From Amoebophrya sp. A120 (lineage: Eukaryota; Protista; Dinoflagellata), in NCBI GenBank assembly GCA_905178155.1, contig CAJINV010000001.1, forward strand, positions 10,011,432-10,075,431: 64,000 nt of DNA, in the 5' to 3' direction. Made by a program: the position numbers and the translations under genes. Positions 44,918 to 64,000 of this stretch are shown here, one piece after another. The notes under the pieces are model-generated. The model did no database searches, had not been told where the DNA came from, and was given only the letters and a program-made list of their open reading frames with translations. Positions within the stretch are counted from its first letter, which is position 1; every line of letters starts with the position of its first letter.

Positions 44918-46736
44918 ATGTCGCGTCTCAGCCCGATCAACAAAATCGGGCTTACCGGGCGATGGGAGCGCATCCCGTATACCAGCGTGCCGAACAATGT
45001 CGATTTGAAGAAGCACCAGATGCACGGCGAGGGGACTGTTTGGCTTCCGAAGGAAGGCGTGTGGTACGACTTCAAGTCGCAGTTTTACTTCGACCCGAAG
45101 AGAGGCCTTTGGTACAACCCCCGGTCCGGTCTGTGGAACCAGCCGGGGGAGCCGGATTGGTTCGAGCTGAAACGGGACGGGTCCGTGCCCGGTTTCGACG
45201 AGCGCGACCCTGTGGAAGAAACGGTGTACGTGGATGAGGAGGGTAACTTTGAGAACGAGGAGGGAAGGCTGATCTACGTCAACCCCTACGGCTTTTACCA
45301 GCATTTCGAGGGCAACGCGCTGGAGAAGTACCGCTTCGAATTTCGCCACCACGCGGTTTCCCCGACAAACGACAAGCAGGAGGAGCACGACGTGGAGTAC
45401 ATCTACTGCTACAAGGAGGAGGGGACTGGCGAGGTCCAGTATTTTACGGCAACGGGATTGCTCGTCGAACCTTTGGGAAGTGGTAAGTACAAGTACGTTT
45501 TGCAGAACGAAGAGGTGCAGCGACCCGTGATCATCAGGAACGAAATCCCGGACATCATTCTGAATCCGCCCAAGGAAAAGGGCTTCTTCGACGTGACCGA
45601 CGACGAGGCAGAGGGGTCCCAGGCGGACTCGCAGGCAGAGAGGAGGAAAGAGGAAGCGGCGGAGAAGAAAAAAGCCGAAGCTGAGGCAGCGGCTGCCGCA
45701 GCGTCTGCCGCAGCGCCGTCGTCGCCGGAGGGAGCGACTTGTAGTGAGTTTGTTTTATTGATTTTAGTACATTTCTTGTCGATTTTTTCACCGAGTTTTG
45801 ATGAAATAAAAAGCAGAAAAATGTTCTATCTAGCGGCAGAATGTATGAATCTTCCTTCGATATGAAACAAACATTAAAACAGCTCCTGCGTCGTCCACCG
45901 CTAAACAGGAATTGAAGGAAAAGAAAGCCGCGGAAAAAGCTAAAAAGGCTGCAGCGGACCGGCGGAAGGCGCCCGATCGCTCGTACTCACCGGAGGCTTA
46001 CGCGGAGCAGGCTGCGCACAAAGAGAAACTACGCAAACAGCACCTGGACACGCTGAAGACGCCGAAGTTTGGCGGGAGCCGTCCGGTCGGGCGGCATTTG
46101 CCGGATACGCTCGAGGACATCATTGAGCACATGAAACGCGGCGATTTGATGAAGTTCGCAAACGACGACGAGGTGAGCGCGCTTCTGAGGAACGCAAACT
46201 TGCCCCCGACGCACTACCCGTTTAAGCGTCCTCCGGCACAGAAACCAATTCTCGTCTACGACCACAACCGGCCGCAGCAGGGCGACCCGCGGCAAAGTCG
46301 TCCACCGTGCATGAACTTCTACGCGGGGACCTGCAAGAGAGGCGATTTTTGCTACTGGCGCCACGACGAGGAGCCGAAGCGGAAGGGCAAGCCGGCGGCG
46401 GAAAATAAGGTGTTCTTCGACACCCTCGACTGTCCGAAAAGGCACGGGGTGACGCTGCTGAAGATGTTTCCAAGAAAGGGGTACGTGTGTGACGTCTGCG
46501 AGAAGGAAATCCCGATGTACAGCAACGTGTACCAGTGTCGGATGAATCGATGCAAGTTTGACTGCTGCCCGCGCTGCGCGAACGGTGCAAAGCAGATCAA
46601 CTGCATCGCCGTAAGGGACATGAGCGACGAGACCCCGGACAATCCGACGCCGGCACCCTCGGAGGTAATCTGCGAGGAGGTGTACGACGAGGACGAGTTT
46701 TCGTCTCGCCGGGGCCGCAGTCGCGGGAGCCAATAG
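44918..46736 (+). CDS. Protein with OCRE-like aromatic repeats, a CCCH zinc finger and a ZZ-like zinc finger; 2 exons
   Basis: GVWYDFKSQFYFDPKRGLWYNPRSGLW; CMNFYAGTCKRGDFCYWRH; CDVCEKEI...YQCRMNRCKFDCCPRC; intron ~45744-45882. Confidence 0.78.
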
Positions 46737-47243
46737 CATCGGATAGATTTTTTTTGGAAGACTGACACTGTAGGATTTTTGGATCAGTTTCCACCGTGTT
46801 TCCGGGAGAAGTACGGATGAAAAACTTGTACAATTACCTTTGGGCATTTTTTCGCTATAGATTGGGCGATTTTTCATCGAGCTTTGGCTTTGTTTTGTCA
46901 CAGGCTTGAGCAGTCGTGGCGACTCGTGTTTGCAGATTTTCGCTATATTACAGCTTTGCGTGTTCTTCAAAAGTACGAGTCTGTAGCACTTCGGCCAGTG
47001 TCGGGTAAAATGTCGAGAAAAAGTACCTTTGGTGTCGGATTCGCTTCTGTGCTCTACTAGAGGGAGAATACAGAGGGAACAGCATTGGGTAATTACCGTC
47101 GAGAGCTGGAATTGAAAACAAGAGCGTGTCTGCTTCTAGTGCCTTTCGGAGTGTTGACGCCATTTTCTCCAGCTCCTTCTCAGACCCCGTACGAGGAGGT
47201 GAAATTAAGAGGAGCCATTTCCAAACTTGCTGCCACAATTACT

Positions 47244-49893
47244 ATGTCCCCTATGTGTCGAAAGTTTAGAAAGGATTTTTGTCGTAAAAACGACCTCCCT
47301 ATCCTCGCTTTGGCGGTCGTAAGCGGTGTACTTCTTACACTAGCCGAGGTCAAAGTCTTTCAATGGATGGCGGAGTTGAGCTTGACAAGTAGCGGCACAC
47401 GTTCGCTCGAGGAAAACTTTTGGTATTCCGAAGACGACGACGCCCGTGCACGATGCGACCAGCACCGCACCACCCCCTTCGATATCGACTACACAGCGCC
47501 GCTAGCGAAGTTCTGCTACGTGATCGCGGTGCTGGTCTGCGTGGTGCTGGTAGGCACCGGGCGGAAAAAAGATGGGCGGGGAAAGAAGAAGGCGGAAGAT
47601 TCATATCAGCCTACCAATGGAACAAATGCATCCGTGCACGACGAAGAGAACAAAGGCAGTCGTCCGGGATCACCCGCCTCACGGGCTGCCACGTCACCAC
47701 GACAACGCGGTGCTGCGAGCAAGACCAACTCACCAGCAATAGCACCCGCTACGAGTCTCGTGATTATCGCGAACGACAGCACGGCAACTCAGGATAGCAC
47801 GCGCGCATCAAGTAGGGGCAGCGCAGTTGAAAGTGCGGCGACCTCTAGTTATACAGAAGGAGCACGACCATCGGAAAATGCAGGAATTAACCCGAAGTCG
47901 AAGAAGCCCCGATTGTACCACCTCGACTACGGACGGATTCTCGCCGTGGCGTGTGTCGTCACGGAGCACTGCGGGAGCAAGGAGTATTCGAGGAGGAACA
48001 CCGGGTTTGTTCTGCACTGGGTGCTCCCGTTCCTGTACGGTATCTCCGGCTACTGCTTCATGCTCTCGCGCGCCGGCCTGGTTGGCTATCTTGGGCGACT
48101 CAGTGTGTTGTTCTGTGCCGGTGTTGGGCTAAATTGGCTAGCGGACGTCTGGAACGGAAATTACAACGAAACGTGGAAGAACACCATCTTCCAAATGGCG
48201 TTTGTTCTGATGCTAATGGCCATGGCGGTGCTGCTGTATCCTTTGAAAAAGCAACTTACGTTTGCAACTACGGACGGTGAGAACGGTAATAGCGTAGATG
48301 ATCGTAAGAGAGAAAGTGGCGCCTTCGCAGACGGAGATCCGAGAACGCCGCCGCTAAAAGCTGCGGGGACACTAAGCAAAGCGAAAGTTGACATTGTGGC
48401 AGGTCGTGCAAAAGGGCCGAGCAACTGTGTCTACAACCCGCTTGACGGCATTGCAGCGATTCAAGTAAGTTGCGCGAGCCCTGGGTCTCCGCTTCCGCTT
48501 TTTCCGCTGTCTGCCACCAACAAGGCGAAGCCATTAGGCGCACGCTTCGCACTGACGCCGCCGGCGCTCGGGAGGAAGAGCGGAGCGCGCTTGCTTGCAG
48601 AGGAATCCTCGTCTTCCGAGCTTGCAGATGAAACCAAGGTCGTGGTGCAGCCAGCGAGTCCGGGTCCGCTGACGAAGCAAGAGAGCCTGCCAGCCAATTC
48701 CGCCTTTCTGTACCGGCCTCCACCTAGGAGGAAAGCCGCGAATACAGCCTACGCGCAGCTACACGATGAGAACGATGTTGACGACGCGACAGCCAGCACG
48801 TCTACCGTCACAACCACAACCAGCTCAACTGCAGCTGAGATACCAGCAGCAATCGAGCCGTCATCGTCCCAAAGTTCGTCATCCTCCTCGGTAACCAAGA
48901 GCACTAGTGCCTCGACGTCCTCTCCTATCAACCTTTTTCGAGAGCCGCCACCTGTTCCGAGAGACAAGGTTGCTGGGCATCGGCCTTCAGCTCCCAGCAA
49001 GCTATGGACCACATTCCAGGATGAATCTGCAATACAGAAAGCAGCTCTGCTGTTCTACTCCGCCTGTGCGTTTGCGTTCCTGCTTGCGTACCTCGCTGAT
49101 GACTCTGCCGACCCCAACACCACGCACTACCATTTGGTCGATGATATGGTATCTTCCTCGAAGTTCATGGGGACGGAATTCTTCCTGCTCTGCGCATTGT
49201 GTAGTTTCGCTTGCTACTGCGAGACAACGCACTACGCGGCAAGTGGAACGGCGATAATCGCGTATTTCTATTTGGTTGATTCAGTGTATCTCTAATCTTT
49301 TTTCTAGTTATAAGTGTCTGTACATATGAGTTCATTCATTGCTTCAGTTGTCGCTGCCACAGCAACGTTTTGTTTTCCTTTTACAAAGAAGAACTCCGTC
49401 ATCTCTGACTCTGTTCAGGTCGGTCTGGCTTCCCCGGGTCTTTCTCCCCTACACAAATGTCGGATTTGCGCACCTGCTGCAGATATTCGTGATCGGAATG
49501 TGGACGGCAAAAGTACCGCTGCCGAACCTGCAGTACTTGCGGGACACGGTTTTTCGAGCTTATTGGCCGCTGGTCCTCGTATTTCTGGTCTGGCTCGCGA
49601 TGCCTACTTCCTACGGCCGCTGCGACTTGTTTCCGAGGACATATCTACTCGATCGGGCCAGGTTCTACCTTTCCGAGCTGATCATTCTGCTTTGGTTCCT
49701 CAGTGGGGGCATGGTCTGCTCTGACCCATTGAATCTAGTCCCACTCCTCAATTATTGGTCGCTGATCGCGTACACAACCCATGAGGCACTGCAACGTGTC
49801 ACGGTCGCGCCGTTCGCCTCGCTGTTTCTGCACTTTCTGATGCCGGGGATGTTCCTGATGCGAAGACTCTTCCTGCTGTGGAGGACGAAATAG
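47244..49893 (+). CDS. Multi-pass membrane acyltransferase-3 (OafA-like) family protein with low-complexity insertions; 2 exons
   Basis: RLYHLDYGRILAVACVVTEH fits the RxxxLDxxRxxAxxxVVxxH signature; VLPFLYGISGY; many TM segments; intron 49262-49418 keeps frame. Confidence 0.75.
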
Positions 49894-50782
49894 TAGTTGT
49901 GCTTTATGAAAAGAATTTTTCGAAAATCAATGAAAATCTTAAAACAACGTTGGCTCGATTGCTTGCCAGCGTCGGGGGACGAGCGATTATCTTCTTTTCT
50001 ACGTAACGCAAAATTACGTAAATGAAAACGGCACTGATTTCCAACTTCTCTGCCCGCTCTGGACGCAAACAGAGCACAAATATGATGATAATCCTTCAAC
50101 AAGCTCAAGCAGTGTGATCGTGTCTTTGATCGCAACAACAAAGCAGCAGTGACTGTTGTTGGCGTGACAGAGGCCGCCTGTGTTACCTTTCGTTTCATTT
50201 TCGTTTTTTTCGTATAGCCAAAGCCTGCCGATACCTGACCAACCCCAAGCGATGAAGTCGTTCCGTGCAGTCCAAGATTAAGGACGCTTGTGTGGAAAGA
50301 GAGTTCTGAGTGCTTTCGTCCTGCAAAGTCTTCTTCGCAAAAACGAACATCGTGTTATATATCGTCAAGCCAGGAGAGTGAACAGGAGAGAGGAGGAGAA
50401 CCAAAGCTGCAAGCTTGCATTGGCATCACTTTTTTCTTCAGGGACTTTCTGGCTTTCGTCGTGTGAAACATGTTGATTTCGTCACCAAATGGACATCGAG
50501 ATCGACATTAGCTGCATGCATTTTCAAGAATCGTTGAAAAGTAAGCGAAGGACGCCGTGACCAGGAGAAGTTCAGCGATGCTTGCTAGGCCAGGCATTAT
50601 AGCGCCTTTTGCTTCGCAAGCGTTCCGCATTTCTTGTGCTGGCGTTGCACAGCCAGGATCCTGCTGTAGCACAATAGCTACCCGAACGGCAGGCGGCGAT
50701 GCGACCGCTCGGCCTGTCGTTTGTTCCGATGCCCGCGATGGGTGAACGAGGACGAGAAAGCTGAAGCAGAGCCTCGAAAATC

Positions 50783-53700
50783 ATGAGCACGACAAGGGGC
50801 AGGCCACCCGGAGCGGGGGCGTCTCAACGACTTCCGTACAAGCAACCACTGAATGCGAATGGGCTCATCTCCGCGTATCACGTGGAAGAAGACGATGAGC
50901 AGCCGACCATCGACGAAGCGGTTTCCGGCTTCGCAGGTCGGGCTTCCTTCGGTGCTGCCCTGATAAATCTAGAGGACAAGCAAGCTCCTGCTGCACCGAA
51001 AAAAAGGGCGACAAACGCGAAGCCGCGAAAGTCTTCGGCGGGTGGAGGTAGAAGGAAAAGCCGTGTTGATGTCGCAGAGTTGGAGGCAGCACCGGCGACG
51101 GAAGAGGAAGTTGTGGATGCCGCTGTGACTGTGGCGGAGAGGTTTAAACGGATTTCGCAGGAAAAAGCTATTCTCGATGACGAAATCGCACCAAGTGCGT
51201 CTCTGGGTCACTTCGATGCGAAGCTGTTCGGAAAGCTGGAAGATATCATGGCTGTTGGGACGCAGGGGAGCCGCGTTTCCGTGGCCGCGAAGAAAGCACG
51301 TCTGAGGGAGTCGTCGGAAAACAAATCAGTGGACGTCGCTCTGCCTGGAGCGGGCGGCTCGTCAGTGGAAGAGGAAAAACGGAAAAGTAGCAAGGCACAG
51401 CGCAACATCGTACCACGAAAGGAGGAAGAGCTCAAGAAAGACGTCGGGAACCTCTTGCGCAGGACCGCGCGGAAAAGCGCCGCCCAGGCTCAGACACGCA
51501 AAAGTGGGGCGAGTAGTTCCGGAAGCAGCCCAGAAAAGGTCCCGCGCGCATTAGACGAGCACCAGAAGCGGCCGACAGGGAATAAACAGGGAAGTGGTAC
51601 AGCTCCACGCTCTGCTCTTGCAGGGAAGAAAGACGTCGCCGGATCATCTACTAGTCCACCACCAATAAAGCCAGCGCGTAGCTCCGTGGGTGAGTCTTTG
51701 GACATGCGCGCGACTACGAAAATGGCCAGAAGAATCCGGGAAGTGGAAGAGCAGCTACCCCAGTTGCTGCTTGACTGGCGCGACACCTGGCGCGCGCGCG
51801 AGGCGGCGCAGGCTTCGGGCAGAGAGGCGACTGTGGAAGAGAAGACTTTCGAACTCAGTATTCTCCAACGCATGCTCTCCGACATACAACACACCCTTGC
51901 CGAGGCGAAGAACGCGACTGTGACGCTGTTTAACGCGGAACCTCTACTCCAGCGCATTCGGAAGCTGGACGGAAAGCTCGTGGAATATCGGAGGGATGAA
52001 CTCAGCTACCTGGCAGCGCGAGCCGCAGACGAGGAGGAAAAGGAAGAGATGGAGCGAAGAAAAAGCAACGAAGCTCAACAAGCTCCAGTTGATGAAGGGG
52101 TTGGTGCACAAGAGGAAGCAAAGCCACCGGAAACTACAGGCCCCAAAATCCCCCCTGAGAGTGAAACGGAGGCACGTCCGTCGCGCGTCAACCTCCGCAA
52201 TCTTATGGGCAGAACCAGCGGCAGAGGGCATCGGTTGAGCGGGAGACGGAAAAGCCGTTCCCCTACTGACGACACGAAAACTGGTGCACCAGCAGGGGGA
52301 CAAGAGGAGAATGCGAACCAGAAAGCCACGAGCAAGCGGGAATCGAGCCGAATTTCGGTGGAAATGCGGAAATTGCCGTCGAGCACCTACAGTACCAGAC
52401 TTCGTTCGACCTATGTGGGCAGTGACAGGAATAAAACGGCGGAGAATGCGCTCGGTTTGAGAGCTACAAAGCAAGCGGAAGCAGTAGCAGGACCACAGCC
52501 AGCCTCGGGGGAAGCCAGAAGTTCCTCGGTTATGAGCGTGCCGATGCGTCAAGCTTCAGTGTTGGAGCGCAATTTTCATTCAACTTATGCTACGTCGGCG
52601 TCTGTGCGTTTTCCGTCGAGTTACGAGCCCGGATTGCGTGAGACAGCAGCTTCCACCGCTGGAAGTACATCGATGTCGATCGAGCAGCGATATCCAAGCG
52701 ATTACACGGATCCAGGTTATCGCCCGACGTCCACCATGTCTTCGACGATGCCGAGCATGCGCGAAGTGCCAAAAAGTTCCGTTTCTGAATTCCGAGCCAT
52801 GCCGACAGTTCACGAGGAGGACGCCACGGTCTTTCTTCCACCCGATCTATCTCCCCGTGACGCCTTGGGGAATGCGCGAGAGGTGCTGACGCAACTGACG
52901 AACGAACAAAACATGGCGAACGTCTTGACGAGCAGAGGATCTTCTGCCACGACTGGAACGAGTGCGCCGCGGCCCTCGGAAGCGTCGCTCCAGGAGGCTT
53001 TCGTCGGTCTCTACAAAGAATTGCGGGATGACGAGACGCGGCGGATATTCCAGGAACTGAAGAAAGCGATGCAAGACCGCGAGGACACGCTGTTGCATAT
53101 GAGTTCCGCTGAGGAGGCGCGCTTTGCCAGTTTCGTCACCGCTTCACTGGATACGCTGTGGGAGTCTAGCTCCCAAGCGGTTACCGTGCGCTCGTCGCTA
53201 GAGGTGATTCGAACGTTTGCCCTGCGCCAGCCCCTCCCGGCGGTGCCACTGCGTACAGAAGCGGCGCCGCTGGGTTTCCGGGACGATTTTGATGCGAAGA
53301 ATCCTGACCCCGCGACGCAAGGCGCCCCTCCCTCCCTGCAAGTGCTACTCGATCGCTTTCATGCGGCCACGAGAAATCTGGGAAAGGTTGGATCAACCCG
53401 TGACGACGAGGACAAACGAGGATTCGCGCCATCAGCTCGTAACCGGCTCGGCGTCGTTGCCGCCACACGACAAAGCTTTTCGCGGCTGCACCGGATGTGG
53501 GCGTCCGCTGTGCAACGGAGCTTCGGGTTTTTCGTTCGAGCGTTTAATTGCCGTCTTGAGGGTGATGACGGCGGGTTCTTGATTTGCACTGTGCCACCAA
53601 GTACCAAGACCGCAGCGAGTGACGAGAAGCATCCACCCTCGTCCCAACTACTTGCCGACAAAAGAGACCGAGAGCAGCGCGTCGCGGAGATGCGGCTTCT

Positions 53701-56700
53701 CCGGGCCGTGAATGAGGTGAAGGGCACTTTGGTGCCCAATTTTCCGCTCACTGAAAATGTGCTGGATGCGCTCGGGAGTCCTCACGATCCTGCAGCCCAA
53801 GAAAGTCACTTGCCGTCTTTGCGCATACGAGCAGCTACAGCGAGCCTGAATCGAATGCTTTTGCTTGGACTTGATTCGGAAAAGCAGCTGAATGTCCTGG
53901 ATGCGATCCAGGCGATGCAGAAGGTCGCCGAGGACAGCCTGCCACTGTTAGAAAACAAAGCCGAAGCTGTCGACGCCGCACAACTCCTTCGCAACTACCT
54001 CGCATTCGCGGAAATGTGTCCTTTGGAAAATCCGTTATTGCAGTTGCAGTACTTAACCGAGACCCGCTTTCGGACGCTGCTAGAATCTCAATTGCTGCTC
54101 GGAACGACCGAGGTGGAAGCGTGTAAGAAGTTTACGAAGGTCCCGGTTTTTGAAAAAGGCGAGAACTTTCAGTTCGTCGTGGAAGTGCTGAAGCAAAACT
54201 CGACGGGCATACAGCCCACCGCCTTAGGGAAGCCACGGAAACGCGATACACGACGTGGGGGCGAAGACAGCAGTACCGGCATCGGGGTCTTTTCGATTTT
54301 GGAGCATGAGGACCAGGCAAGTGACAGCGGGGGTGCAAAGCGCTCAAGCTTGAGCAAATTCTTGCCCGATGACATGGACGACCTGAAAAAGCGGCGCTTA
54401 GAAGAGGACTCCGAGACCGAATCGGAGGCGGACGAGCTAAAAGCGGACCGGGACATTGATGGCCACGTTTTGGCCAAACGCATTGACGACGACTTTGCGG
54501 ATTTGTTGGATCTCAACGGTCAGCGATTGGAAGGCCAAAAGTTCGCGGCGCACATCATGGACCGCACCGGGCAGGCGCGCGCGGAGTTGCTACATCGTCT
54601 CAGTCCTCATCTTCACAAGAAGAGGGAAGGTTCATCTGGTCACCAAAATGTGGGACGCTCCTACGAGAACAACTCATCTAAGCCGGAGTTGCTCGCAACC
54701 TACGACGACGTCGACGACATTCTGGCCGTTCTTCTGCGCTGCAAGGAGGAGAGCCAGCTCTTTGTGCGGTTGAAGAAAATCGTGCATGCAAAGTTGGACA
54801 AGGTTGTGGAAGCCTTGGCAAAGAAGTCAAGTCAGGGGGTGAAGCTGGACCTACTATTGGTCGAGGTGATCCACGGCCTGAATTTTGCCGCGGAGTACTT
54901 GCACGCAGTCGGGTCGGCGCTGAGCGAGGACTTGGCGAAAGTGATTGCCGTTTTGCCACTGGATCTGCGCGAGTACGTCGAAGGTGCCCAGAGGTCCGCA
55001 GATCTGTTCTCTTTTCTCGACGAATACGAGCTGCAGGCCCCCGAAAACGCGAATTCCCTTTGCTTGGTTCTGACGAGAAAGCTTCGGGCCGAGAGCGGGC
55101 CACTTTCGCCAAGCGCGAGCGGGGGTGCTACTTCCAGCGTAACCGGTTCGAAGACGAGCTTTATCAAGGACTCTACAGACGGTAGTCCCGTGGATGAAGT
55201 CGCATCACGCGGAGGCGATGGACAAGTAGTAGGCCCGTCAGGAGCTCCTGCCCTCGCGACCGCGGCTGACAACCTCCTGTTCTACCCGGACCGAAGTCTG
55301 CTGTTTCGGGAGGACGAGCGGATCGAACGACAACTGGAGGAAATGGCAAAGAGGACGCTTCTGACTCATGCACAGGTGCAGGACCTGGCCCGGATTGCGC
55401 GGGAAACGAAACCCTTTCGCGCGTTTCCCGCGGGAAAATCCAGACCGTTGTGGGAAGACCCAGCAGTGCTGGCCACTGTGGCGGGGGAAAACTTGCAGAA
55501 GAAGATGCGCATGACGTTCAATTCCACCAATTTGTTCGACGTCGTCGACGCGGCCGACGAAGCGAGGTCGCTTTTACCCCTGAGCGGCGTGGAGCGAGAG
55601 AACCAGGAGCTGCAGGAAACGCAGGCCGCACTGGAAGCGGAGCTGGCGGACTTGGAAACGGAACACCAAGATTTCCTTTCCTCCGTGATGTCAACGCGAT
55701 CCAGGCGCTCGAGACGAGAGTTGAAAGCAATGTCACCGATGCTCAGCTCGCCTGGACAGGCCAGTGAACAACAAGCTGATGCAGACGGAACAACCCAACC
55801 AGCTTCCGACCAGAAGAAGCGCCGGCGCTCTTCCCTGATCGCGTACATCGACGGCGTCGGCCCAAAAATCAGCCGCGACGCAGACGCTGACCTCTTTTCC
55901 GACGAAGACACGACGCTGCGGGACCGGGTTGCCGCAAAATTGCGGAAACCCGGTAGGGAATCGTATTACGCGGCGCTGGTCCGCGAGGCGGACGAAGACG
56001 GCAAGCACCCGGCCAAGAGCGATAAGAAGTTCGTTGCGTTTCTGCAGCGTGCCAGGCCGTACTTGGAAGAGCGGCTAGAGGAACTAGCGGAAGAGGGAGC
56101 CGAAATTCAGGATGAGATGCAGGACCGAGCGGCAAGACTGCTGCGCGGGCTGGGCAAAGTGAAAGCGGAGCGCGGACGCAGGTCGCTCGAGGACGACAGC
56201 GAAGACGCGCAAGCGCAGCTGGATCTGGGTTTGCTTTTCCCGGACATGTACATCAACGAAGTGGACAAAAACGGCAGAATCTCTCCAAAACTCGTGCGAC
56301 CACCACGGACGCCGACCGAGAAGTTTCGGAGTCTGTACCAGCGTCTCGCGCTGGTGGAGAACGTTCGATCGGGACGTTACTACTACCGCGTCGCGCATCT
56401 AGGAGCGAAGCGCTCACTGAGTGATGATGCGCACTACACGCGGAAGAAACTCTTCTCGGAATTGTGGCAGGAGGCGGTGCAGCGAATGGGCAGGGTGCGC
56501 ATGAAACGCTTCATGACCGCGGGGGGAAGTGTGTACGGCCCGGATGCGCAGATGGAACACTTGTACCAGGATGCGGTCGCATGGGACGTATTGGGATCCC
56601 GAGAGGTTTTGTCGAAGATCAAACACGACTACGTTATTAAGGAGGACGCGAAGCTGTTGCGGCTGAGAAGTGGCAGATTCGGAAAAAATCAGCCCTTCTT

Positions 56701-59700
56701 GGTAAAGGATGTTGCGGAAAGTACTGCTACTTCGCCAGGCGAAGAAGGTGCTGAAATTTCGAATATGAGCGATGACATCGAGTTGGGCGGCATTTACCCC
56801 GATCCTTTCCTCGCGGGCGACATCGTGCTGCTGAAGCGCGATCTTTTGCACGAAACCGACTACGAGCGCTCTAGTGCGACGGAGTCAAAGCGTGACACGA
56901 GGACCACGACGTTGGCTGGCACGAGGTCCGGCGACCCCTACGAGCGGCTGATCGACCAGATTTTGTCCTCCTATCCGCGGCATCGCCCGCGCCTGCGCGT
57001 TCGAGACGGGATCGTTTCGAAAAGAAAACTGATTCGGGTGGATTGCGTGGATTCCATGACGGGCGGCGTTCTCGGAGAGTACCGCCTGGACGTCAGCAGC
57101 ATTGTGCACGCGCAGCCGGAGAAAGAGCTCGGAATGAAAGGGAGAATCGTGTATGATGTGAAAATGGAAAGTCCCTCTAGCGTGGCTGGACCCGATGTTG
57201 TCTCAGGCAGCAAGGTCGGTCGCGTAAGCGCAGCGGAGCGCAGGCAGTCCAAAGCCTCCGCTTCGTCTCCTAGCAGCGGCGGCGACATCCAGTATCTGGT
57301 TCCGGCAGAAGCAGAACGCGACATGGAGGAACTCACGACAGCTGGGTCGTCCAATCTAAAGTCCGTGGCGTCGTCAAGAAAGTCGGCAGTGGCGAAGCGA
57401 AAGAGTTTGAAGAGTACCGAAAGTCGTGCTACTACCACGAACATGAGAACAACGCGGAGGAGCAGGACGCAGACACAACAACTCGCTTTTGCGCCGCAGC
57501 AACGGGCATCTGCGACGTTACCTCCAGGAAGAGAGCGAGATGGTGCTCGGAGAGCCGCCTCCGCTGCAGACGCGGCTACTGATTCGCTGCAGGCACGGCG
57601 GCTGCGGAAAAGCAACAAGGCGAAAACAACGCCGCTGTTCTTCCCCGAGCCTGTGGACGACATGGATCTGCCTCTTCGAAAGTCCTCCATGGGGAGCACG
57701 TCGATCGACGACTCCGCGGAAGACTTTCTGCAGTACGACGTGAAGCCGCTGCCAGGTCGGGAAGTGCAAGTGCCCCGCGTTTTGCTGCGCGACGTGGTTG
57801 TCGACTCCCATGACCCGCGGTTCGACGACTTCCGGATGCTGCGGCAGTTGGTGCAGGCGGGCTACCAGCTCGGTGTGCGGGGAACTACTTCGCACACGAA
57901 ACGAATGAAAACGGGCGCGCTCGGGGAGGACGAGGCGGCGTTTGCGGAGGCGTTCGAGATGTTGAAGCGCGGATCGTCTGCGTGGGAGGACATGGACTAC
58001 CTCTTCACGGAGAACCTCGCCCGGCACTCGCTACCCGGCGAGCACGAGAAGGACCGGAAAAGTGACCACCTGCTCGGCGGAGGAGGAAATGGGGTGGACG
58101 AGGATTTGTTCGTGAGTGTGTGGCCGGTGAAGCGACTGCTCGGGAACGAAGGCACGTTCTTTTCCACGAGCGACTTTGTTGCAGCGAGCACGCAAGACGT
58201 TGCGCGCGTCTTAGGAAAGCCGGGGGTGCGGGACTTTGTTGTGCACCGCGACTTTGTGGTCCCGGAGGTCTACGGGCCCGCCTTCCACGCGACGGCGCAA
58301 CGCGACTTGCTGCGGGTCGTGCCACGAGATGTCGTCGTCGCCACCAGTTTTGACAAGAACATGCGAGTGTTACGCGATTTGCACAAACACCCGCGGAGTT
58401 GTATTCTACTGGTGCACGTGGCTGGGAAGGATGAAATGCTGGACCTGGAAGACGACCAGGCCGACGGTCTGCCGTCCAAGAGGAAAAAAACAGAGCAAAT
58501 CGACATGACGCGCCTTTCGGTGTCGCACTTCCAAGAGTACGAGAATCTCGGCCGGGCGATGGCCACGAAGGCACAGGAGAACGAGGTGATCGAGGCGGAA
58601 CGCAGCCAAAGCAGCAGCGGAAGCGAAGCGGAGATGAAAAGGGAAAGTGAAAGCTTGACTTACCGGTTGATTCCACAAGCGGTTGTTGCACTGTTTGCGG
58701 AAGACGAGGGGGGGAAAATGAGCATGCAGGGCAAACCTGTCATGGTGCCATGCAACTACCTGCAACCGCAGTCGAAGTACAACAGGTTCGATGAGCTGAG
58801 TCGGACGCGGGTGCTCGCGGAAGGTGCCGTGCAGGAGCGCTACGATGAGGAGCTGCACGAAGAGTACCTGCCAGACCTGGTTCTCCTCAAGGCAAGCGCG
58901 TTCATGGATAACGAGCAGCAGCTGATAGAGGCGCTGACGCCGCAACTGCAGACGCTGCTCGCCTTGGCGGCGGAGGGGTACGTGTTTCGCGTTTTGAGTT
59001 ACGATCCGCCTGCTGAAGCTGAGGCAGAGGACGCGGAGGATGAGACAGAAGACCTCGGGCTACTTGCCACTGTCGGGGTGTACACGGAGGACGTCCTTGG
59101 AAGCGCGGACGCTGCGGGATTGAGCTACGTGGTTCCACAAGAAGCGCTGGCGCACTTGAGTCCGGTTTTTGCGGTCGATCGTCCGTGTGTCGCTGGGGAT
59201 CGCGTGCAGCTACGGCAGTACGAGATTGGACAAAGTTTGGGAGCGGGCAGTGAAGCGGCTGCCAGTCGTGCGTCCAGCGAGCGCGCCACTTCGGAAACGA
59301 CCGTCTGGGACGATTTCGCAGCGGCGGAAATCGTGGAGACAAAAATGTACAGGGGCGAAATCTGCTACTGCAAAGATGTGTACAGCGCAGATTGGATCGG
59401 GGGCGGCACCCGAGCTGTCCTCTCGTTCTCCGGAGACGCTGGTGGCAGAACAAGTCGAAACAGCAGTAATGACGAGGTCGAGCTTCCGCGATCCTGGCTG
59501 GAGCCCCTTGAAAAAGTGGACGAGCGGCGTTTGTTGGACAAAAGTACCGCGGTCCAACTCCGCGACGTCCTGCACGGCAGGCGGTACCGGCACCGCATCA
59601 AGTATCTCAGGAAGCAACTCGAACTTGGTGCGGCGCTCTACGCTGTTCCCGTCGGCATCGACGCCGACGTCGATCTGGTCCCGACAGGGACCACGACAAA

Positions 59701-62700
59701 TCAAAGCGATCTACGAGGAGGCTCGACCAGAACAACAGTCGTGGAAGTATTAGGTGAAGATGCAGATGAAGTTTCAGAGGAAGAAACGGACCCGACTGTG
59801 GCAGCACTGGAGGGGAAAGTGGCGCGCGAGGAGGCAAAGGAGCGCGATCCGAGGCAAGATTTGATTCGCATTCCCAGTCCGCTTCTCCGCCTCCAGGTTT
59901 GGCGACGTGGGCTCTTTGTCCGGGAGTTGCGCATTCCGGCCGCGTATCTGTCACCTGTGTTGCTTGATTCGACCACAGATGACGCCGGTGCTGGGACAAC
60001 CGGGCACGAGCTTGAGGCCACCTCGCAGGCGGGCGCGCTCGCAGAGCAGGTACGTAGCTCCAGGGATTCCGCCGCAATTCACGCAGTGATCACGCATGCT
60101 GCAGAGGGAAGCATCCACCCAAGAAACGCACGTTCATCACTGCAGCCGGGCGAGATTGTGATGTTGCACAGCCATACGGGGCTGTGGCCTAATCAGGAAG
60201 CGCATCTGGCTGCTGCCGCAAAAGAGATAAAGTCGGGGATGTGCGATCTGCGATTTGTCGAGTCGGTGAGCAAGCACGCGGCCCTCGTTGCGCTTATCGG
60301 TGCACACAAAGAAAAAGACAAGTATTCGGTTGTCAAATGCGTTCCCGTTCCGAAGGACGCAATCGCCCCGGTGCTGGAGCAGTTTGATCTGTTCTACCAC
60401 AGCAACACCGTTCCCGCGATGCAAAACGAACTCGTGCACGTGGAGACCCTGGGGGCGCCGAGATTGGATTTTGCGGGCAAGGCAATTCTGGGTGGAGGCT
60501 TGGAGGACGTTGGTGAGCGGTCCCACCGGGTTTTGCTTCCGGGCGACGAGGTCCTCGTCCGGCCGGGCTTTGCGCTGGCAGATCGCCTGCAAGCGCGGAT
60601 CCAGGACGGCAGCAGCTGCGTTGTGGCCCACATTGCTTCCGGCGGTCACTGGTACCTTTTGAACACGACGCTCGCGCCAGTGTCTGTCGCGGTAGACCGA
60701 GGGTCGGCGTTGACCACTGGTTTCGAGCCAAAAGACGGAGAAGGAGAACTCAATAGCGCGAATGAAGAAGAGAAAAAGTCGAATGCTTCTAGCACATTGT
60801 TCCCGTCAACCGCGTCTGAGAGTGAACAGGAGACGACCGTGGACCGCGCGCTCGAGGAGCAGAGTTTTTTCTGGCTCCCCGCCCGCCACGTCGTCGTTCC
60901 CGCCACGCCGTTTCGTCTGGAGGGCGGCATTGGCAAGCGCGTTGGGGTGCACGACGTCTGTGTCCCGGATGCCTGGACGAGTGCGGTGCGGCGAGTGCAG
61001 ACCGCTTCGTCCGCAACGCTGCTTGAAGTCGGCCCGGCCTTGGCCCAAATCGGCGTTTTATCCAGAAGCAGTGTCTATGAGGTGGTCAGTTTACCTACAG
61101 TGTTCGTGGTTCTGGAGGAAGACCTAGTGATGCAAGTTGCCTTACCGGAGAGCGCGGAGGAAGAGTCGGAATTCGCTGCTCTGCAAAAACTGCTGGCGGC
61201 GTTCCCACACGGTCAGCGCGTTTACTTGAAGACTCCCTTGATCGGCCGGGGGTGCGCGTCTTACACCGCACTCATGGAGGCACTCGCTGCGAAGAACGAG
61301 AGCACCGCCAAGCACGAGTTGAAGATAGGAACCGTGTCTGACCATCGCGTCGGCGTCACGATTGCCGGACAACATCTTCACAACAAGAAGGAGTTTTTAC
61401 TCCCAGTATCCTGCCTGCACCTCCCACGCCCGTTGCACGCTCGACACGACGTGCAATTCGAGAAGAAGCAGCGTGTCAGCGTCAAAGATGTGGCTGGGCT
61501 GGAGGGTGACACAGAGTATGTGAAGGTGCGCGATTTCGTCAGAGAAGTTCCCCGGGCAAGAGTCGTTGTCCACAGCGAAGACACGCGTAAGGGACATGCA
61601 CAAGTGATGCTTCTTGACGTAGATGGGCTTCCCTTGGATCGGGCGACCATCCGGTCCGATCTGCTAGAGGATTTCCATAAGGGAATGAACGAGGGGACTC
61701 TGGCGTCGGCGCCAAACCTCAGAAAGATTGTAGGAGCTACGGGAACTGCGCCAGCAAGTGCTAGTCGGAAAAGCAAGAGAAAAACGAAAGCTGCAGACGA
61801 AAACCAAGATAGTGGCAAGAAGGTCCCGTGCTCGATCCGACCAATCGTTGTCTACGAAGGATACCGATCCGTGATTGATCGGCTGCGTGCGCTCGAAGCA
61901 AGGGGCGATGAGCTCCTCATGCCGGAGCGGGAAGTGAAAAAGAAGGCGGATCGTGTCATCGTTTTGGTGCATCGGGAAGCGCCGCCGGCGGATGAGAGCG
62001 ACACCAGCGCGTTGCTTGCAAATCCATTAGTGTGCACAGAAGTTGTCCCTCGTGACTGCCTGCTGCCGCATGTGGAGACTGCACTCGTAGAGGAACGAAA
62101 ACCGGCCGCGCACTCCTTTTTCCTACCTGACACCGAGGTGTTTCTTCTTGGGCGCGCGCCGGAACTCGATCCCGCGTGCCAGAAACTGTTTGACTTGTAC
62201 TATGCACCGGGGAGCGATCCGTCGACGAAGGTAAAGCTTCTCGTGCGAGCACAGCAGGGGGCGAGTGTTTGCGTAGAGCCGGTGCTTGCGCGGCTGACAA
62301 AAGGTGCGCTTTTCCAAGGAGAATCAGAACGCGAAAGACCGTTCGTGCTGCCGGCCGAGCTGTTGACCCAAGCGCAACCTATTTTTGACTCGGTGGCTGC
62401 AGTAGCTGGAGAAGACGACGAGCACGAGAGGTACTTTGCCCCACTGACGGAGGTGCTATTGCGAGACGTGCAAGTGAGTGCAAAGGAATACCCGAGCGTA
62501 CAGCTTATCAGGCAGCACGTGGAGGAGCGCGGTGCGATTTTGGTCATCGCACAGTACCTGCACAGGGACGACTTCGTTACTGATGAAATGATAGCACCCG
62601 ACTTCTCGGTTGCGGACGGTTGCGCTCGCATTGACGTTGCGGTGATGCTGCCCGAGGTCTGGGAAGGGGCGCAGCACGCGGCGAAGCAAGAGAATTTACA

Positions 62701-64000
62701 GGCTGCTGCTCTTGACGAGTACTACAGCCAGTTTTTCCAAAGCTCTTCCGAAGTCGCCATGATCTCTGCGCTACCTTCGGTGTTTCTTGTGCCCCGCCAG
62801 CACTTCCATTTCCACCCCGATGCGGCAGGCGCGAACTCGTTGCCTGTTGCTGGGGAAATAGTGCGGATCAGGTCCGTCGTGTTCCCCTGGGCCAGTATGA
62901 CGGAGGCTCACTACGAGCTGGTGTCGAGTCTTCGCGATTTCAGCACTGAGAAGCTGTTGCTCCACAGTGTGGACACGAAGCTGGAGGAGGCGACGGTCTG
63001 GGTGCTTGACGCACAGGTCCCCGACCAGCACCCGGTGACCACGGTGAATCTTCCATTGTCTGCGCTTGAACCTGTGATCACCGTGGAAAATGTTGCGGCC
63101 TATTCGTACCGGGAGAGCCAGTTGCAGCAGTGCCTGCAGTACCAGGCGTTCTTGGCCGAACGGGTAGATCAGACACAGGAATCACCAACGGTGATGCAAA
63201 GCACCGCTCCCGCTGCTGCTGCACCACCGCAGCCAGCTGGCCACTACAGCAGAAGGGTCACGCAAAACAGCGCGCGAAGCCGAAAGCGCAGCAGTGTTGC
63301 CCGAGGCAGCATTGTGAATGGAACGTTGAACTTAGATCCGAATCGCCTTTTGCCTGTGATCGAAGAGGAGCTTTCGGGCAGCATACTGCAGGCGATCGCA
63401 CCCGAGGACAAACGCTTGCGACCGCTGACTCTGGAACGAAAAACGTTTTCGCCGTTGTCTCGCTACTACGTTGCACCGGGGGATACTGTTCTGCTAACCA
63501 AGCAAGACACGAAAAACACGCAAGCGGAACCTTTGTTGCAGAAAGTGCGGCAAATGAGCGTGAACCCGAACAACCGAACGAGGGTCCTATCGTACAAGCC
63601 CGATTTGGCGGAAATTGCCGTCTCCCGCACGGGGATCAGGAGAGCGAGCGTTTTAGACCACCAACACGCTGGATTTCAGCAGCAAACCTTCCACGTGCCG
63701 GCGGTGGCCCTCGTTCCGCACATTGATCCGGATGTCAAGAAGTGCAGAATTGGTGACTACGTCCATCTTCGTGACGTCTTTCTCGGGGCAGACGAACATG
63801 TCACTGTTGCCGAACAATTTGTGCAAGATGAAGCGGCTGCGCAGAAAAATACAGAGACGCCACACCGCCACTTGATCCGCTTGTGCCAGGATGTAGAGGA
63901 GAAAGACCCCTTGGAGAAACCGACGCTTGCGTGTGAACTTGTCGTTGCAGGGATCCACGGCGGTGTTGAATACAAAACAGTCCAGACAACCGTCCATCTG
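50783..64000 (+). CDS. Giant intronless ORF (>4400 aa, 3' end beyond the window); disordered/helical N-terminal half, tandem SH3/KOW-like repeats in the C-terminal half
   Basis: Frame +2 has a stop at 50762-50764 and ATG at 50783 (MSTTRGRPPG...). It was open in every segment I translated, through ...GVEYKTVQTTVHL at 64000. The ORF track lists no terminated frame +2 ORF in this span, consistent with no internal stop. Confidence 0.88.
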   Translation, partial: MSTTRGRPPGAGASQRLPYKQPLNANGLISAYHVEEDDEQPTIDEAVSGFAGRASFGAALINLEDKQAPAAPKKRATNAKPRKSSAGGGRRKSRVDVAELEAAPATEEEVVDAAVTVAERFKRISQEKAILDDEIAPSASLGHFDAKLFGKLEDIMAVGTQGSRVSVAAKKARLRESSENKSVDVALPGAGGSSVEEEKRKSSKAQRNIVPRKEEELKKDVGNLLRRTARKSAAQAQTRKSGASSSGSSPEKVPRALDEHQKRPTGNKQGSGTAPRSALAGKKDVAGSSTSPPPIKPARSSVGESLDMRATTKMARRIREVEEQLPQLLLDWRDTWRAREAAQASGREATVEEKTFELSILQRMLSDIQHTLAEAKNATVTLFNAEPLLQRIRKLDGKLVEYRRDELSYLAARAADEEEKEEMERRKSNEAQQAPVDEGVGAQEEAKPPETTGPKIPPESETEARPSRVNLRNLMGRTSGRGHRLSGRRKSRSPTDDTKTGAPAGGQEENANQKATSKRESSRISVEMRKLPSSTYSTRLRSTYVGSDRNKTAENALGLRATKQAEAVAGPQPASGEARSSSVMSVPMRQASVLERNFHSTYATSASVRFPSSYEPGLRETAASTAGSTSMSIEQRYPSDYTDPGYRPTSTMSSTMPSMREVPKSSVSEFRAMPTVHEEDATVFLPPDLSPRDALGNAREVLTQLTNEQNMANVLTSRGSSATTGTSAPRPSEASLQEAFVGLYKELRDDETRRIFQELKKAMQDREDTLLHMSSAEEARFASFVTASLDTLWESSSQAVTVRSSLEVIRTFALRQPLPAVPLRTEAAPLGFRDDFDAKNPDPATQGAPPSLQVLLDRFHAATRNLGKVGSTRDDEDKRGFAPSARNRLGVVAATRQSFSRLHRMWASAVQRSFGFFVRAFNCRLEGDDGGFLICTVPPSTKTAASDEKHPPSSQLLADKRDREQRVAEMRLLRAVNEVKGTLVPNFPLTENVLDALGSPHDPAAQESHLPSLRIRAATASLNRMLLLGLDSEKQLNVLDAIQAMQKVAEDSLPLLENKAEAVDAAQLLRNYLAFAEMCPLENPLLQLQYLTETRFRTLLESQLLLGTTEVEACKKFTKVPVFEKGENFQFVVEVLKQNSTGIQPTALGKPRKRDTRRGGEDSSTGIGVFSILEHEDQASDSGGAKRSSLSKFLPDDMDDLKKRRLEEDSETESEADELKADRDIDGHVLAKRIDDDFADLLDLNGQRLEGQKFAAHIMDRTGQARAELLHRLSPHLHKKREGSSGHQNVGRSYENNSSKPELLATYDDVDDILAVLLRCKEESQLFVRLKKIVHAKLDKVVEALAKKSSQGVKLDLLLVEVIHGLNFAAEYLHAVGSALSEDLAKVIAVLPLDLREYVEGAQRSADLFSFLDEYELQAPENANSLCLVLTRKLRAESGPLSPSASGGATSSVTGSKTSFIKDSTDGSPVDEVASRGGDGQVVGPSGAPALATAADNLLFYPDRSLLFREDERIERQLEEMAKRTLLTHAQVQDLARIARETKPFRAFPAGKSRPLWEDPAVLATVAGENLQKKMRMTFNSTNLFDVVDAADEARSLLPLSGVERENQELQETQAALEAELADLETEHQDFLSSVMSTRSRRSRRELKAMSPMLSSPGQASEQQADADGTTQPASDQKKRRRSSLIAYIDGVGPKISRDADADLFSDEDTTLRDRVAAKLRKPGRESYYAALVREADEDGKHPAKSDKKFVAFLQRARPYLEERLEELAEEGAEIQDEMQDRAARLLRGLGKVKAERGRRSLEDDSEDAQAQLDLGLLFPDMYINEVDKNGRISPKLVRPPRTPTEKFRSLYQRLALVENVRSGRYYYRVAHLGAKRSLSDDAHYTRKKLFSELWQEAVQRMGRVRMKRFMTAGGSVYGPDAQMEHLYQDAVAWDVLGSREVLSKIKHDYVIKEDAKLLRLRSGRFGKNQPFLVKDVAESTATSPGEEGAEISNMSDDIELGGIYPDPFLAGDIVLLKRDLLHETDYERSSATESKRDTRTTTLAGTRSGDPYERLIDQILSSYPRHRPRLRVRDGIVSKRKLIRVDCVDSMTGGVLGEYRLDVSSIVHAQPEKELGMKGRIVYDVKMESPSSVAGPDVVSGSKVGRVSAAERRQSKASASSPSSGGDIQYLVPAEAERDMEELTTAGSSNLKSVASSRKSAVAKRKSLKSTESRATTTNMRTTRRSRTQTQQLAFAPQQRASATLPPGRERDGARRAASAADAATDSLQARRLRKSNKAKTTPLFFPEPVDDMDLPLRKSSMGSTSIDDSAEDFLQYDVKPLPGREVQVPRVLLRDVVVDSHDPRFDDFRMLRQLVQAGYQLGVRGTTSHTKRMKTGALGEDEAAFAEAFEMLKRGSSAWEDMDYLFTENLARHSLPGEHEKDRKSDHLLGGGGNGVDEDLFVSVWPVKRLLGNEGTFFSTSDFVAASTQDVARVLGKPGVRDFVVHRDFVVPEVYGPAFHATAQRDLLRVVPRDVVVATSFDKNMRVLRDLHKHPRSCILLVHVAGKDEMLDLEDDQADGLPSKRKKTEQIDMTRLSVSHFQEYENLGRAMATKAQENEVIEAERSQSSSGSEAEMKRESESLTYRLIPQAVVALFAEDEGGKMSMQGKPVMVPCNYLQPQSKYNRFDELSRTRVLAEGAVQERYDEELHEEYLPDLVLLKASAFMDNEQQLIEALTPQLQTLLALAAEGYVFRVLSYDPPAEAEAEDAEDETEDLGLLATVGVYTEDVLGSADAAGLSYVVPQEALAHLSPVFAVDRPCVAGDRVQLRQYEIGQSLGAGSEAAASRASSERATSETTVWDDFAAAEIVETKMYRGEICYCKDVYSADWIGGGTRAVLSFSGDAGGRTSRNSSNDEVELPRSWLEPLEKVDERRLLDKSTAVQLRDVLHGRRYRHRIKYLRKQLELGAALYAVPVGIDADVDLVPTGTTTNQSDLRGGSTRTTVVEVLGEDADEVSEEETDPTVAALEGKVAREEAKERDPRQDLIRIPSPLLRLQVWRRGLFVRELRIPAAYLSPVLLDSTTDDAGAGTTGHELEATSQAGALAEQVRSSRDSAAIHAVITHAAEGSIHPRNARSSLQPGEIVMLHSHTGLWPNQEAHLAAAAKEIKSGMCDLRFVESVSKHAALVALIGAHKEKDKYSVVKCVPVPKDAIAPVLEQFDLFYHSNTVPAMQNELVHVETLGAPRLDFAGKAILGGGLEDVGERSHRVLLPGDEVLVRPGFALADRLQARIQDGSSCVVAHIASGGHWYLLNTTLAPVSVAVDRGSALTTGFEPKDGEGELNSANEEEKKSNASSTLFPSTASESEQETTVDRALEEQSFFWLPARHVVVPATPFRLEGGIGKRVGVHDVCVPDAWTSAVRRVQTASSATLLEVGPALAQIGVLSRSSVYEVVSLPTVFVVLEEDLVMQVALPESAEEESEFAALQKLLAAFPHGQRVYLKTPLIGRGCASYTALMEALAAKNESTAKHELKIGTVSDHRVGVTIAGQHLHNKKEFLLPVSCLHLPRPLHARHDVQFEKKQRVSVKDVAGLEGDTEYVKVRDFVREVPRARVVVHSEDTRKGHAQVMLLDVDGLPLDRATIRSDLLEDFHKGMNEGTLASAPNLRKIVGATGTAPASASRKSKRKTKAADENQDSGKKVPCSIRPIVVYEGYRSVIDRLRALEARGDELLMPEREVKKKADRVIVLVHREAPPADESDTSALLANPLVCTEVVPRDCLLPHVETALVEERKPAAHSFFLPDTEVFLLGRAPELDPACQKLFDLYYAPGSDPSTKVKLLVRAQQGASVCVEPVLARLTKGALFQGESERERPFVLPAELLTQAQPIFDSVAAVAGEDDEHERYFAPLTEVLLRDVQVSAKEYPSVQLIRQHVEERGAILVIAQYLHRDDFVTDEMIAPDFSVADGCARIDVAVMLPEVWEGAQHAAKQENLQAAALDEYYSQFFQSSSEVAMISALPSVFLVPRQHFHFHPDAAGANSLPVAGEIVRIRSVVFPWASMTEAHYELVSSLRDFSTEKLLLHSVDTKLEEATVWVLDAQVPDQHPVTTVNLPLSALEPVITVENVAAYSYRESQLQQCLQYQAFLAERVDQTQESPTVMQSTAPAAAAPPQPAGHYSRRVTQNSARSRKRSSVARGSIVNGTLNLDPNRLLPVIEEELSGSILQAIAPEDKRLRPLTLERKTFSPLSRYYVAPGDTVLLTKQDTKNTQAEPLLQKVRQMSVNPNNRTRVLSYKPDLAEIAVSRTGIRRASVLDHQHAGFQQQTFHVPAVALVPHIDPDVKKCRIGDYVHLRDVFLGADEHVTVAEQFVQDEAAAQKNTETPHRHLIRLCQDVEEKDPLEKPTLACELVVAGIHGGVEYKTVQTTVHL

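What the first reader, a model, noticed from the sequence alone, without database searches (positions are those of the whole stretch)
50783..64000. Unlisted giant (>13.2 kb, >4400 aa) single-exon gene with no recognisable known giant-protein family
Seen: one uninterrupted frame from 50783 past the window end, apparently dropped by the ORF track because it has no stop. Layout is a disordered N-terminus (~50.8-52.8 kb), Leu-rich helical blocks (~52.9-55.1 kb), a coiled/charged region, then a repeat region. In the parts I translated I saw no dynein/midasin Walker motifs, PKS/NRPS, HECT or RT/integrase motifs. Inference: a lineage-specific scaffold or structural protein.
Basis: partly seen in the sequence, partly recalled or inferred. 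Interest (0 to 1): 0.75.

Follow-up and report, generated by a model that had tools for sequence, protein, structure and literature searches.

The report
Giant orphan SH3-like barrel array protein
A real, transcribed gene of the parasitic dinoflagellate Amoebophrya encodes a roughly 5,250-residue protein with no relatives found, whose back half is predicted to be a string of up to 20 small SH3-like barrels, likely making it a many-site docking scaffold inside the cell.

Summary
One open + frame runs from ATG 50783 past the window end (4,406 aa). The same gene is deposited as a 5,092-aa protein (P0001) with 848 aa more, about 5,254 aa in all. Contigs of spliced-RNA runs cover 90% of the in-window frame with no joint. 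A neighbouring gene is identical to a protein labelled Amoebophrya sp. A120. No homologue was found in the parts searched (1.84 billion representatives, word-indexed searches, metagenomes), and Pfam, NCBIfam and PDB sequence searches gave no significant match. New here: from residue ~2,008 to ~4,717 lie up to 20 very diverged units; a blind motif search recovered 11 of them above 42 of 42 shuffles. One unit, folded with 14 sister rows, gives a confident model (pLDDT 89): a five-stranded SH3-like barrel with a helix in its first loop. It is closest to HERC2, Mind bomb REP and PetP (Z 6.4-7.2, tied with Tudor/KOW). It fails the Pfam SH3_15 test and has no RING, membrane or Walker A motif. Best reading: a lineage-specific intracellular multivalent scaffold; function inferred. 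'Single exon' is not fully proven: a 12-nt GT-AG micro-intron is possible.

The parts
50783..64000 (+). Open reading frame of the giant protein (aa 1-4406; continues 848 aa past the window, about 5,254 aa in all)
   Evidence: RNA-run contigs
50783..52852 (+). Polar, low-hydrophobicity N-terminus (aa 1-690), likely disordered, enriched in [RK][RK]xS motifs
   Evidence: composition; 8 motifs against a shuffle mean of 2.0, reached by 1 of 1000 shuffles; disorder inferred
51248..51250 (+). Met156, start of the deposited model P0001; the upstream in-frame ATG at 50783 adds 155 aa
   Evidence: RNA cover of 50896-51169 was absent in all 4 runs laid, so the true start is unsettled
51833..51844 (+). 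12-nt GT..AG in-frame stretch omitted by the deposited model: possible micro-intron
   Evidence: no listed RNA contig bridges 51830-51844 and one begins exactly at 51845, but no joint was reported
55898..55906 (+). 9-nt in-frame stretch omitted by the deposited model, non-canonical ends; likely a gene-model artefact
   Evidence: two RNA contigs read through it without a gap, though with under 31 nt on the right side
52853..54982 (+). Leu-rich, probably helical region (aa 691-1400), not folded, no family match
   Evidence: helicity inferred from composition only
55550..56182 (+). Charged region with probable coiled-coil segments (about aa 1590-1650 and 1761-1795)
   Evidence: heptad score flagged aa 1761 only; sub-threshold Pfam hits to coiled-coil families at about aa 1590-1650
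56804..64000 (+). Array of SH3-like barrel units R1-R17 (R18-R20 lie past the window in P0001)
56804..57118 (+). Unit R1 (aa 2008-2112)
   Evidence: first-strand motif recovered blind
57755..59962 (+). Units R2-R6, several with long loop insertions
   Evidence: R3 and R5 recovered blind in register, R2 five residues off; R4 and R6 set by eye
60137..62074 (+). Units R7-R12
   Evidence: R7 and R8 recovered blind; R10-R11 single-sequence model, low confidence, shows helix plus three strands plus short helix for R10
62114..64000 (+). Units R13-R17
   Evidence: R13, R14, R15, R16 and R17 recovered blind in register

Best explanation
This is a real, transcribed, roughly 5,250-residue Amoebophrya protein whose C-terminal half is predicted to be an array of up to 20 diverged SH3-like beta-barrels, and it likely works as an intracellular multivalent scaffold that docks several partner proteins at once. 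Shown: the frame, its deposited continuation, RNA cover, no transmembrane segment or Walker A/RING motif, a repeated first-strand motif above shuffles, and no homologue in the parts searched. Predicted: the fold of one unit (R20): strand, loop with helix, three strands, short helical turn, strand. Inferred: that the other units share the fold; that they arose by old internal duplications (no DNA-level repeats remain); that each barrel or closely linked pair binds a short peptide or protein surface, as the SH3-like repeats of Mind bomb are reported to do; that the Leu-rich and coiled regions anchor or oligomerise the protein; and that the basic Ser-rich N-terminus is a phospho-regulated flexible arm.
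For: Fold: AlphaFold2 on alignment A5 (15 rows), pLDDT 89.2, pTM 0.75, five models 85-89. VIA-align against 48,161 chains: PetP Z 6.7 (rmsd 2.7, 63 aligned), Mind bomb 1 REP Z 6.7 (2.7, 63), HERC2 2638-2700 Z 6.5 (2.4, 61), nitrile hydratase beta Z 6.5 (2.5, 67); HERC2 in 9l93 Z 7.2 (2.4, 61). Judged by their titles (fold class recalled), the listed rows are SH3-like barrels. Repeat: a blind greedy motif search scored 14.83 bits at 10 sites against shuffle means of 12.4-12.5 and a maximum of 13.57; 0 of 42 shuffles reached the real score at 6, 10 or 14 sites; it recovered 11 of my 19 first-strand anchors in register. Location: no 19-residue window above hydropathy 1.49, no CaaX; the N-terminus has no hydrophobic leader (sequence). 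Charge: 13 of 20 units are net negative, the highest +5, which fits protein better than nucleic-acid partners. 7 of 19 linkers are 8 aa or shorter, suggesting packed pairs. Precedent: Mib1 SH3-like repeats are substrate-recognition domains, KEG has seven SH3_15 repeats and ftr97 six (PMC11701565, passages); tandem barrels are common in scaffolds (10.1101/140376, passages).
Against: No Z reached 8, and the tool warns that such scores may mean only a common arrangement; Tudor, KOW and R67 DHFR are tied within 1 Z. Foldseek gave no match at E <= 0.001. Only 1 of 20 units was modelled with confidence. A Gibbs sampler did not find the motif: 10.5 bits against 9.6-12.0 in 88 shuffles. That also shows my hand-picked leave-one-out test cannot stand alone. 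Whole-unit leave-one-out was clear for only 10 of 20 units. The first 2,000 aa were not folded and could hide an enzyme. There is no partner, localisation or stage data. The same review says tandem barrels are also common in RNA-binding proteins.
Confidence: 0.55

Rival explanations
1. The array binds RNA, DNA or chromatin, like tandem KOW or Tudor barrels (Spt5, 53BP1), serving the unusual dinoflagellate gene-expression machinery.
For: KOW and Tudor domains are tied with the top rows (Z 6.0-6.3). There are five basic clusters fitting a loose NLS pattern. Tandem barrels are common in RNA-binding proteins.
Against: The KOW Gly pattern (recalled) occurs 0 times and 13 of 20 units are net acidic. 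No conserved aromatic column appears in alignments A1-A5. No Pfam KOW or Tudor hit in 17 of 17 in-window units.
Confidence: 0.17
2. It is a structural beads-on-a-string filament (titin-like) of the parasite's cytoskeleton or cortex rather than a signalling scaffold.
For: Very large size, no catalytic motif, probable coiled-coil segment.
Against: Units vary from 68 to 157 aa and linkers from 2 to 212 aa; identity of the other rows to R20 is only 12-32%. A ruler-like filament would be expected to be regular (inference).
Confidence: 0.15
3. It is an extremely diverged KEG-, Mind bomb- or HERC2-type ubiquitin ligase whose catalytic module is unrecognisable or supplied in trans.
For: The best-scoring folds include repeats of two E3 ligases, HERC2 and Mib1. 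Known SH3_15 arrays sit in E3 ligases. Amoebophrya orthologues average only 48-51% identity (PMC7789003, passages).
Against: No RING pattern, 32 Cys and one CxxC in 5,254 aa. No HECT, RING, ankyrin or kinase Pfam hit in the window part, and no precomputed Pfam domain for P0001.
Confidence: 0.09
4. The repeat is over-called: only a few units are real domains and the rest is diverged low-complexity sequence.
For: Gibbs search failure; weak whole-unit scores for 10 of 20 units.
Against: The greedy blind search beat 42 of 42 shuffles and recovered 11 anchors; first-strand and P-site motifs alternate in order along 2,700 aa; the model is confident.
Confidence: 0.04

Closest known systems
SH3_15 (PF18346) repeat arrays: Mind bomb 1 REP, Arabidopsis KEG, zebrafish ftr97
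   Same: Tandem SH3-like barrels in a large eukaryotic protein. The modelled unit matches Mib1 REP at Z 6.3-6.7, rmsd 2.7-3.0 over 63-64 residues.
   Different: No Pfam SH3_15 match; 8-13% identity; up to 20 units against seven in KEG and six in ftr97; no RING, ankyrin or kinase module found.
HERC2 SH3-like domain (residues 2638-2700, PDB 9l93/9l8y)
   Same: Best Z (7.2 and 6.5, rmsd 2.4, 61 aligned); a giant multi-domain host protein.
   Different: 8% identity; no HECT or other HERC2 domain detected by Pfam; HERC2 is not a long barrel array (recalled).
Tandem KOW/Tudor proteins (Spt5, 53BP1)
   Same: Same small beta-barrel class, Z about 5.6-6.3; Spt5 has five tandem KOW-Tudor domains.
   Different: They align over only about 48-55 residues, against 61-67 for the best rows; no KOW Gly pattern or conserved aromatic column here.
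PetP and nitrile hydratase beta-subunit C-terminal barrel
   Same: Z 6.5-6.7 over 63-67 residues.
   Different: Single prokaryotic or plastid domains in unrelated complexes; shared fold only.

Membership tests
SH3_15 / Mind bomb-KEG repeat E3 ligases | SH3-like five-stranded barrel fold | tested here: met
   One unit (R20) modelled at pLDDT 89; Z 6.3-6.7 to Mib1 REP, tied with other barrels
SH3_15 / Mind bomb-KEG repeat E3 ligases | Match to Pfam PF18346 or PF06701 profile | tested here: not met
   0 of 17 in-window units and 0 of 15 alignment rows including R20 at E up to 10
SH3_15 / Mind bomb-KEG repeat E3 ligases | RING (or HECT) ligase module in the same chain | tested here: not met
   No RING pattern and one CxxC in 5,254 aa; no Pfam hit in the window part. 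The 848-aa tail was checked only by pattern and by the precomputed Pfam column
Canonical SH3 (PxxP-binding) | A[LIV][YF][DE][YF], WW and PxNYV signature (patterns recalled) | tested here: not met
   0 occurrences of each in the full protein; no Pfam SH3 hit
KOW / Spt5-type arrays | GDxVxVxxGxxxG motif (recalled) | tested here: not met
   0 matches; units keep only the leading G-D/E-x-V-x-L part
Tudor / Royal-family methyl readers | Conserved aromatic cage | tested here: inconclusive
   No conserved aromatic column, 2-12 aromatic residues per unit; cage geometry was not examined on the model
Known giant families (dynein, midasin, VPS13, HECT ligases, PKS/NRPS) | Family Pfam domains; Walker A for the AAA+ proteins | tested here: not met
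   No significant Pfam, NCBIfam or PDB-sequence hit over aa 1-4406; no Walker A pattern in the window part or the tail
Secreted or membrane effector | Signal peptide or transmembrane helix | tested here: not met
   Highest 19-residue hydropathy 1.49; polar N-terminus at both candidate starts. No dedicated predictor was available
Protein-binding scaffold (functional class) | Binds several partner proteins | not testable with these tools
   Needs pull-down or proximity labelling

The most novel reading that the evidence does not exclude
A new family of helix-inserted SH3-like repeats, invisible to Pfam, forming a 20-barrel array about three times longer than the SH3_15 arrays I saw described, without any ligase module. 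It would be a fast-evolving, parasite-specific hub that organises the Amoebophrya cell during intracellular growth and sporulation, and a first member of a hidden repeat class in the unannotated 60% of syndinian proteomes.
Probability: 0.35. Interest if true: 0.6.

Novelty: new variant of a known kind. Interest (0 to 1): 0.42.

Why it matters
About 59-64% of Amoebophrya proteins have no functional assignment (PMC7789003, abstract), and these parasites are held to help control dinoflagellate populations (PMC6176090, listing). This work gives a fold and a testable architecture to one of those orphans, about nine times the mean coding length for the lineage (1,773 bp). It also shows that internal-repeat alignments can rescue structure prediction where no homologue exists. 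If all 20 units hold, it extends SH3-like repeat arrays well beyond the E3-ligase examples. It does not yet tie to a phenotype, so the value is moderate.

Tried and rejected
No whole genome is held for the window, so paralogues elsewhere in the genome were not searched; none of the other frames in the window scored with the repeat profile (best 6.6 bits). Homologue searches: region 1850-4406 among proteins of 2,423-7,711 aa, only P0001 of 1,494 candidates; region 690-2120 among proteins under 2,423 aa, 0 of 7,991 candidates; aa 3115-4314 against 1.84 billion representatives, only P0001; metagenome contigs 0 of 153 and 0 of 192 pattern matches. Not searched: aa 1-1850 among long proteins, aa 1-690 among short ones, and the 848-aa tail at any length. 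The ESM Atlas gave no answer. Single-sequence fold of R10-R11: pLDDT 34.5, not used for fold search. Profile of A2 against PDB sequences: best E 0.55, unrelated. Gibbs motif search failed. Codon-bias test did not separate the coding frame from the +1 frame, so it is not used. Contig depth rises toward the 3' end, but the tool says contig depth cannot rank parts of a gene, so it is not used. DNA-level repeats: one 15-nt tandem of 2.1 copies and nine 20-28 nt two-copy families, chance-like. Mobile element or RT/integrase origin rejected: no Pfam match. Earlier findings: three look-ups returned nothing. Three papers on Mib1 and KEG were not held. Literature searches listed no paper describing this protein; I saw listings only for most, and did not open supplements, where annotation tables might mention it. 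No complex prediction was run, as no partner is proposed.

Full report
Observation. A single + frame is open from 50765 to the window end, 4,412 codons, with an ATG at 50783. The other five frames carry 81-154 stops over about 14 kb, and the chance of such a frame from base composition is about 1e-74. A DNA contig of run X1 matches 44100-64000 without a difference and continues about 25 kb; it may be the window's own source, so it is not independent.

Organism and setting. All 13 stop-to-stop frames of 400 aa or more in the window lie on the + strand. A neighbouring opine-dehydrogenase gene (42421-43722) is 100% identical to a protein that its source labels Amoebophrya sp. A120; the next hit is 61% and named dinoflagellate and Perkinsus hits are 52-55%. 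Amoebophrya genes lie in unidirectional clusters, orthologues between strains average 48-51% identity, 59-64% of proteins have no assignment, and 66.9% of A120 genes are spliced (PMC7789003, passages and part of Table 1). So an unspliced, unassigned gene is ordinary in this lineage; its size (about nine times the 1,773-bp mean coding length) and content are not.

Full length and exon structure. The gene is deposited as P0001, 5,092 aa, a single-member cluster with no precomputed Pfam domain. It starts at Met156, omits 4 aa (51833-51844, GT..AG) and 3 aa (55898-55906), and adds 848 aa past the window, giving about 5,254 aa from the first ATG. Run X3 is RNA in practice: its contigs skip GT..AG introns in two neighbouring genes (45740-45883, 49261-49419) that X1 retains. 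Listed contigs of X3-X6 (one study; X3-X5 one sample) cover 90% of 50783-64000 with no joint or gap (19 and 25 further pieces were not shown). One X3 contig runs 2,927 nt past the window, which fits 2,547 nt of remaining coding sequence plus about 380 nt of untranslated tail (inference). The 9-nt omission is read through by two contigs. The 12-nt one is not bridged by any listed contig, and one contig begins exactly after it, so a real micro-intron is possible. Cover of the first 490 nt is thin (X3 only, none at 50896-51169), so the start codon is unsettled.

Orphan status. Only P0001 was found with aa 3115-4314 against 1.84 billion representatives and with aa 1850-4406 among long proteins (1 of 1,494 candidates). 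Nothing was found with aa 690-2120 among shorter proteins (0 of 7,991) or in metagenome contigs. Pfam, NCBIfam and PDB sequence searches gave nothing significant. The N-terminal 1,850 aa among long proteins and the 848-aa tail were not searched for homologues.

The repeat. BLAST self-comparison shows almost nothing and there are no DNA-level repeats of note. By eye, a first-strand motif (small-x-G-D/E-x-V-x-L-R/K-D) alternates with an end motif (hydrophobic-P-x-x-x-hydrophobic-x-P) from aa 2008 to 4717, defining 20 units of 68-157 aa. The statistics are mixed. Whole-unit leave-one-out was clear for 10 of 20 units. Block tests on hand-picked sites looked strong (18 of 19 and 16 of 20 sites), but a Gibbs control showed that selection alone reaches similar scores, and it did not find the motif (10.5 bits against 9.6-12.0 in 88 shuffles). 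A greedy blind search then gave 15.84, 14.83 and 12.6 bits for 6, 10 and 14 sites. None of 21 global and 21 local shuffles reached these, and the search recovered 11 of my 19 first-strand anchors in exact register. I therefore take at least 11 units as supported blind and up to 20 as likely.

The fold. Two units folded from sequence alone gave pLDDT 34.5, with a helix followed by three strands and a short helix in R10. Unit R20 folded with 14 rows from 14 other units (whole or part; R1, R7, R8, R18 and R19 were not in the alignment) gave pLDDT 89.2 and pTM 0.75: E7-10, H21-31, E36-43, E51-57, E60-65, a three-residue helix, E69-71. The rows were picked by a search that favoured my hand-set register, which is a bias. 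Against 48,161 representative chains the best rows are PetP (Z 6.7), Mind bomb 1 REP (6.7, 6.3), HERC2 2638-2700 (6.5) and nitrile hydratase beta (6.5), then Tudor, R67 DHFR and KOW at 6.0-6.3; 68 chains reach Z 5 and none Z 8. The second look gave HERC2 Z 7.2. Foldseek had no match at E <= 0.001 in PDB or viral models. This places the unit in the SH3-like small beta-barrel class with a helix in the first (RT) loop, but does not pick a family.

How it likely works. There is no transmembrane segment, leader, CaaX, Walker A or RING pattern. Canonical SH3 and KOW signatures (recalled patterns) are absent and no aromatic column is conserved. Thirteen of 20 units are net acidic and 7 of 19 linkers are 8 aa or shorter. 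[RK][RK]xS motifs are enriched in the N-terminus (8 against 2.0; 1 of 1000 shuffles) and in the repeat region (8 against 2.5; 7 of 1000). The SH3-like repeats of Mib1 are substrate-recognition domains, and KEG and ftr97 carry seven and six (PMC11701565, passages). Tandem barrels are common in scaffolds and in RNA-binding proteins (10.1101/140376, passages). I infer an intracellular multivalent scaffold: diverged barrels, singly or in pairs, bind different partners; the Leu-rich and coiled regions anchor or oligomerise it; basic Ser-rich arms are phospho-regulated (0.55). Rivals are a nucleic-acid or chromatin binder (0.17), a structural filament (0.15), a hidden E3 ligase (0.09) and an over-called repeat (0.04).

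Membership and novelty. It works like an SH3_15-type repeat array but is not filed as a member: the Pfam profile and the ligase module were tested and not met. Seven literature searches (listings, with passages read for three papers, no supplements) showed no description of this protein, and three look-ups of earlier findings were empty. I rate it a new variant of a known kind. Interest is 0.42: a real and unusually long barrel array in an orphan giant protein, with the function untested and only one unit confidently modelled.

Noticed in passing
window 1-64000: All 13 stop-to-stop frames of 400 aa or more are on the + strand: a unidirectional gene cluster, as described for Amoebophrya.
   Followed up: yes
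window 51833-51844: 12-nt in-frame GT..AG stretch omitted by the deposited model. No listed RNA contig bridges it and one starts exactly at 51845. If spliced, it would be an unusually short intron.
   Followed up: partly
window 42361-43725: Opine/octopine dehydrogenase gene (PF02317) with 174 relatives, the named ones dinoflagellate or Perkinsus, at about 49-61% identity.
   Followed up: partly
window 44626-46877: Spliced gene (142-nt GT..AG intron, 45740-45883) joining an OCRE domain to CCCH and C1-like zinc-finger matches; probably an RNA-binding protein.
   Followed up: no
window 47061-50114: Upstream neighbour: 744-aa frame plus a second exon after a 157-nt GT..AG intron (49261-49419), with no significant Pfam match.
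   Followed up: no
window 33174-36800, 18970-21408, 22613-24652, 16786-18303: Four more long frames (1,209, 813, 680 and 506 aa) with no Pfam match at E <= 0.001; further orphan candidates.
   Followed up: no
window 26931-29870: 980-aa frame with a papain-family protease domain only at its C-terminus (aa 756-970), so a very long N-terminal extension.
   Followed up: no
window 2033-2980, 11245-12906, 13169-15103, 25161-26660: Ion-channel, SWEET/MtN3 sugar transporter, SET-domain and MIZ/SP-RING zinc-finger matches.
   Followed up: no
P0001 about aa 4660-4710 (past the window): A further first-strand motif and helix-like stretch followed closely by an end-like motif: possibly a 21st, truncated or permuted unit.
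   Followed up: no
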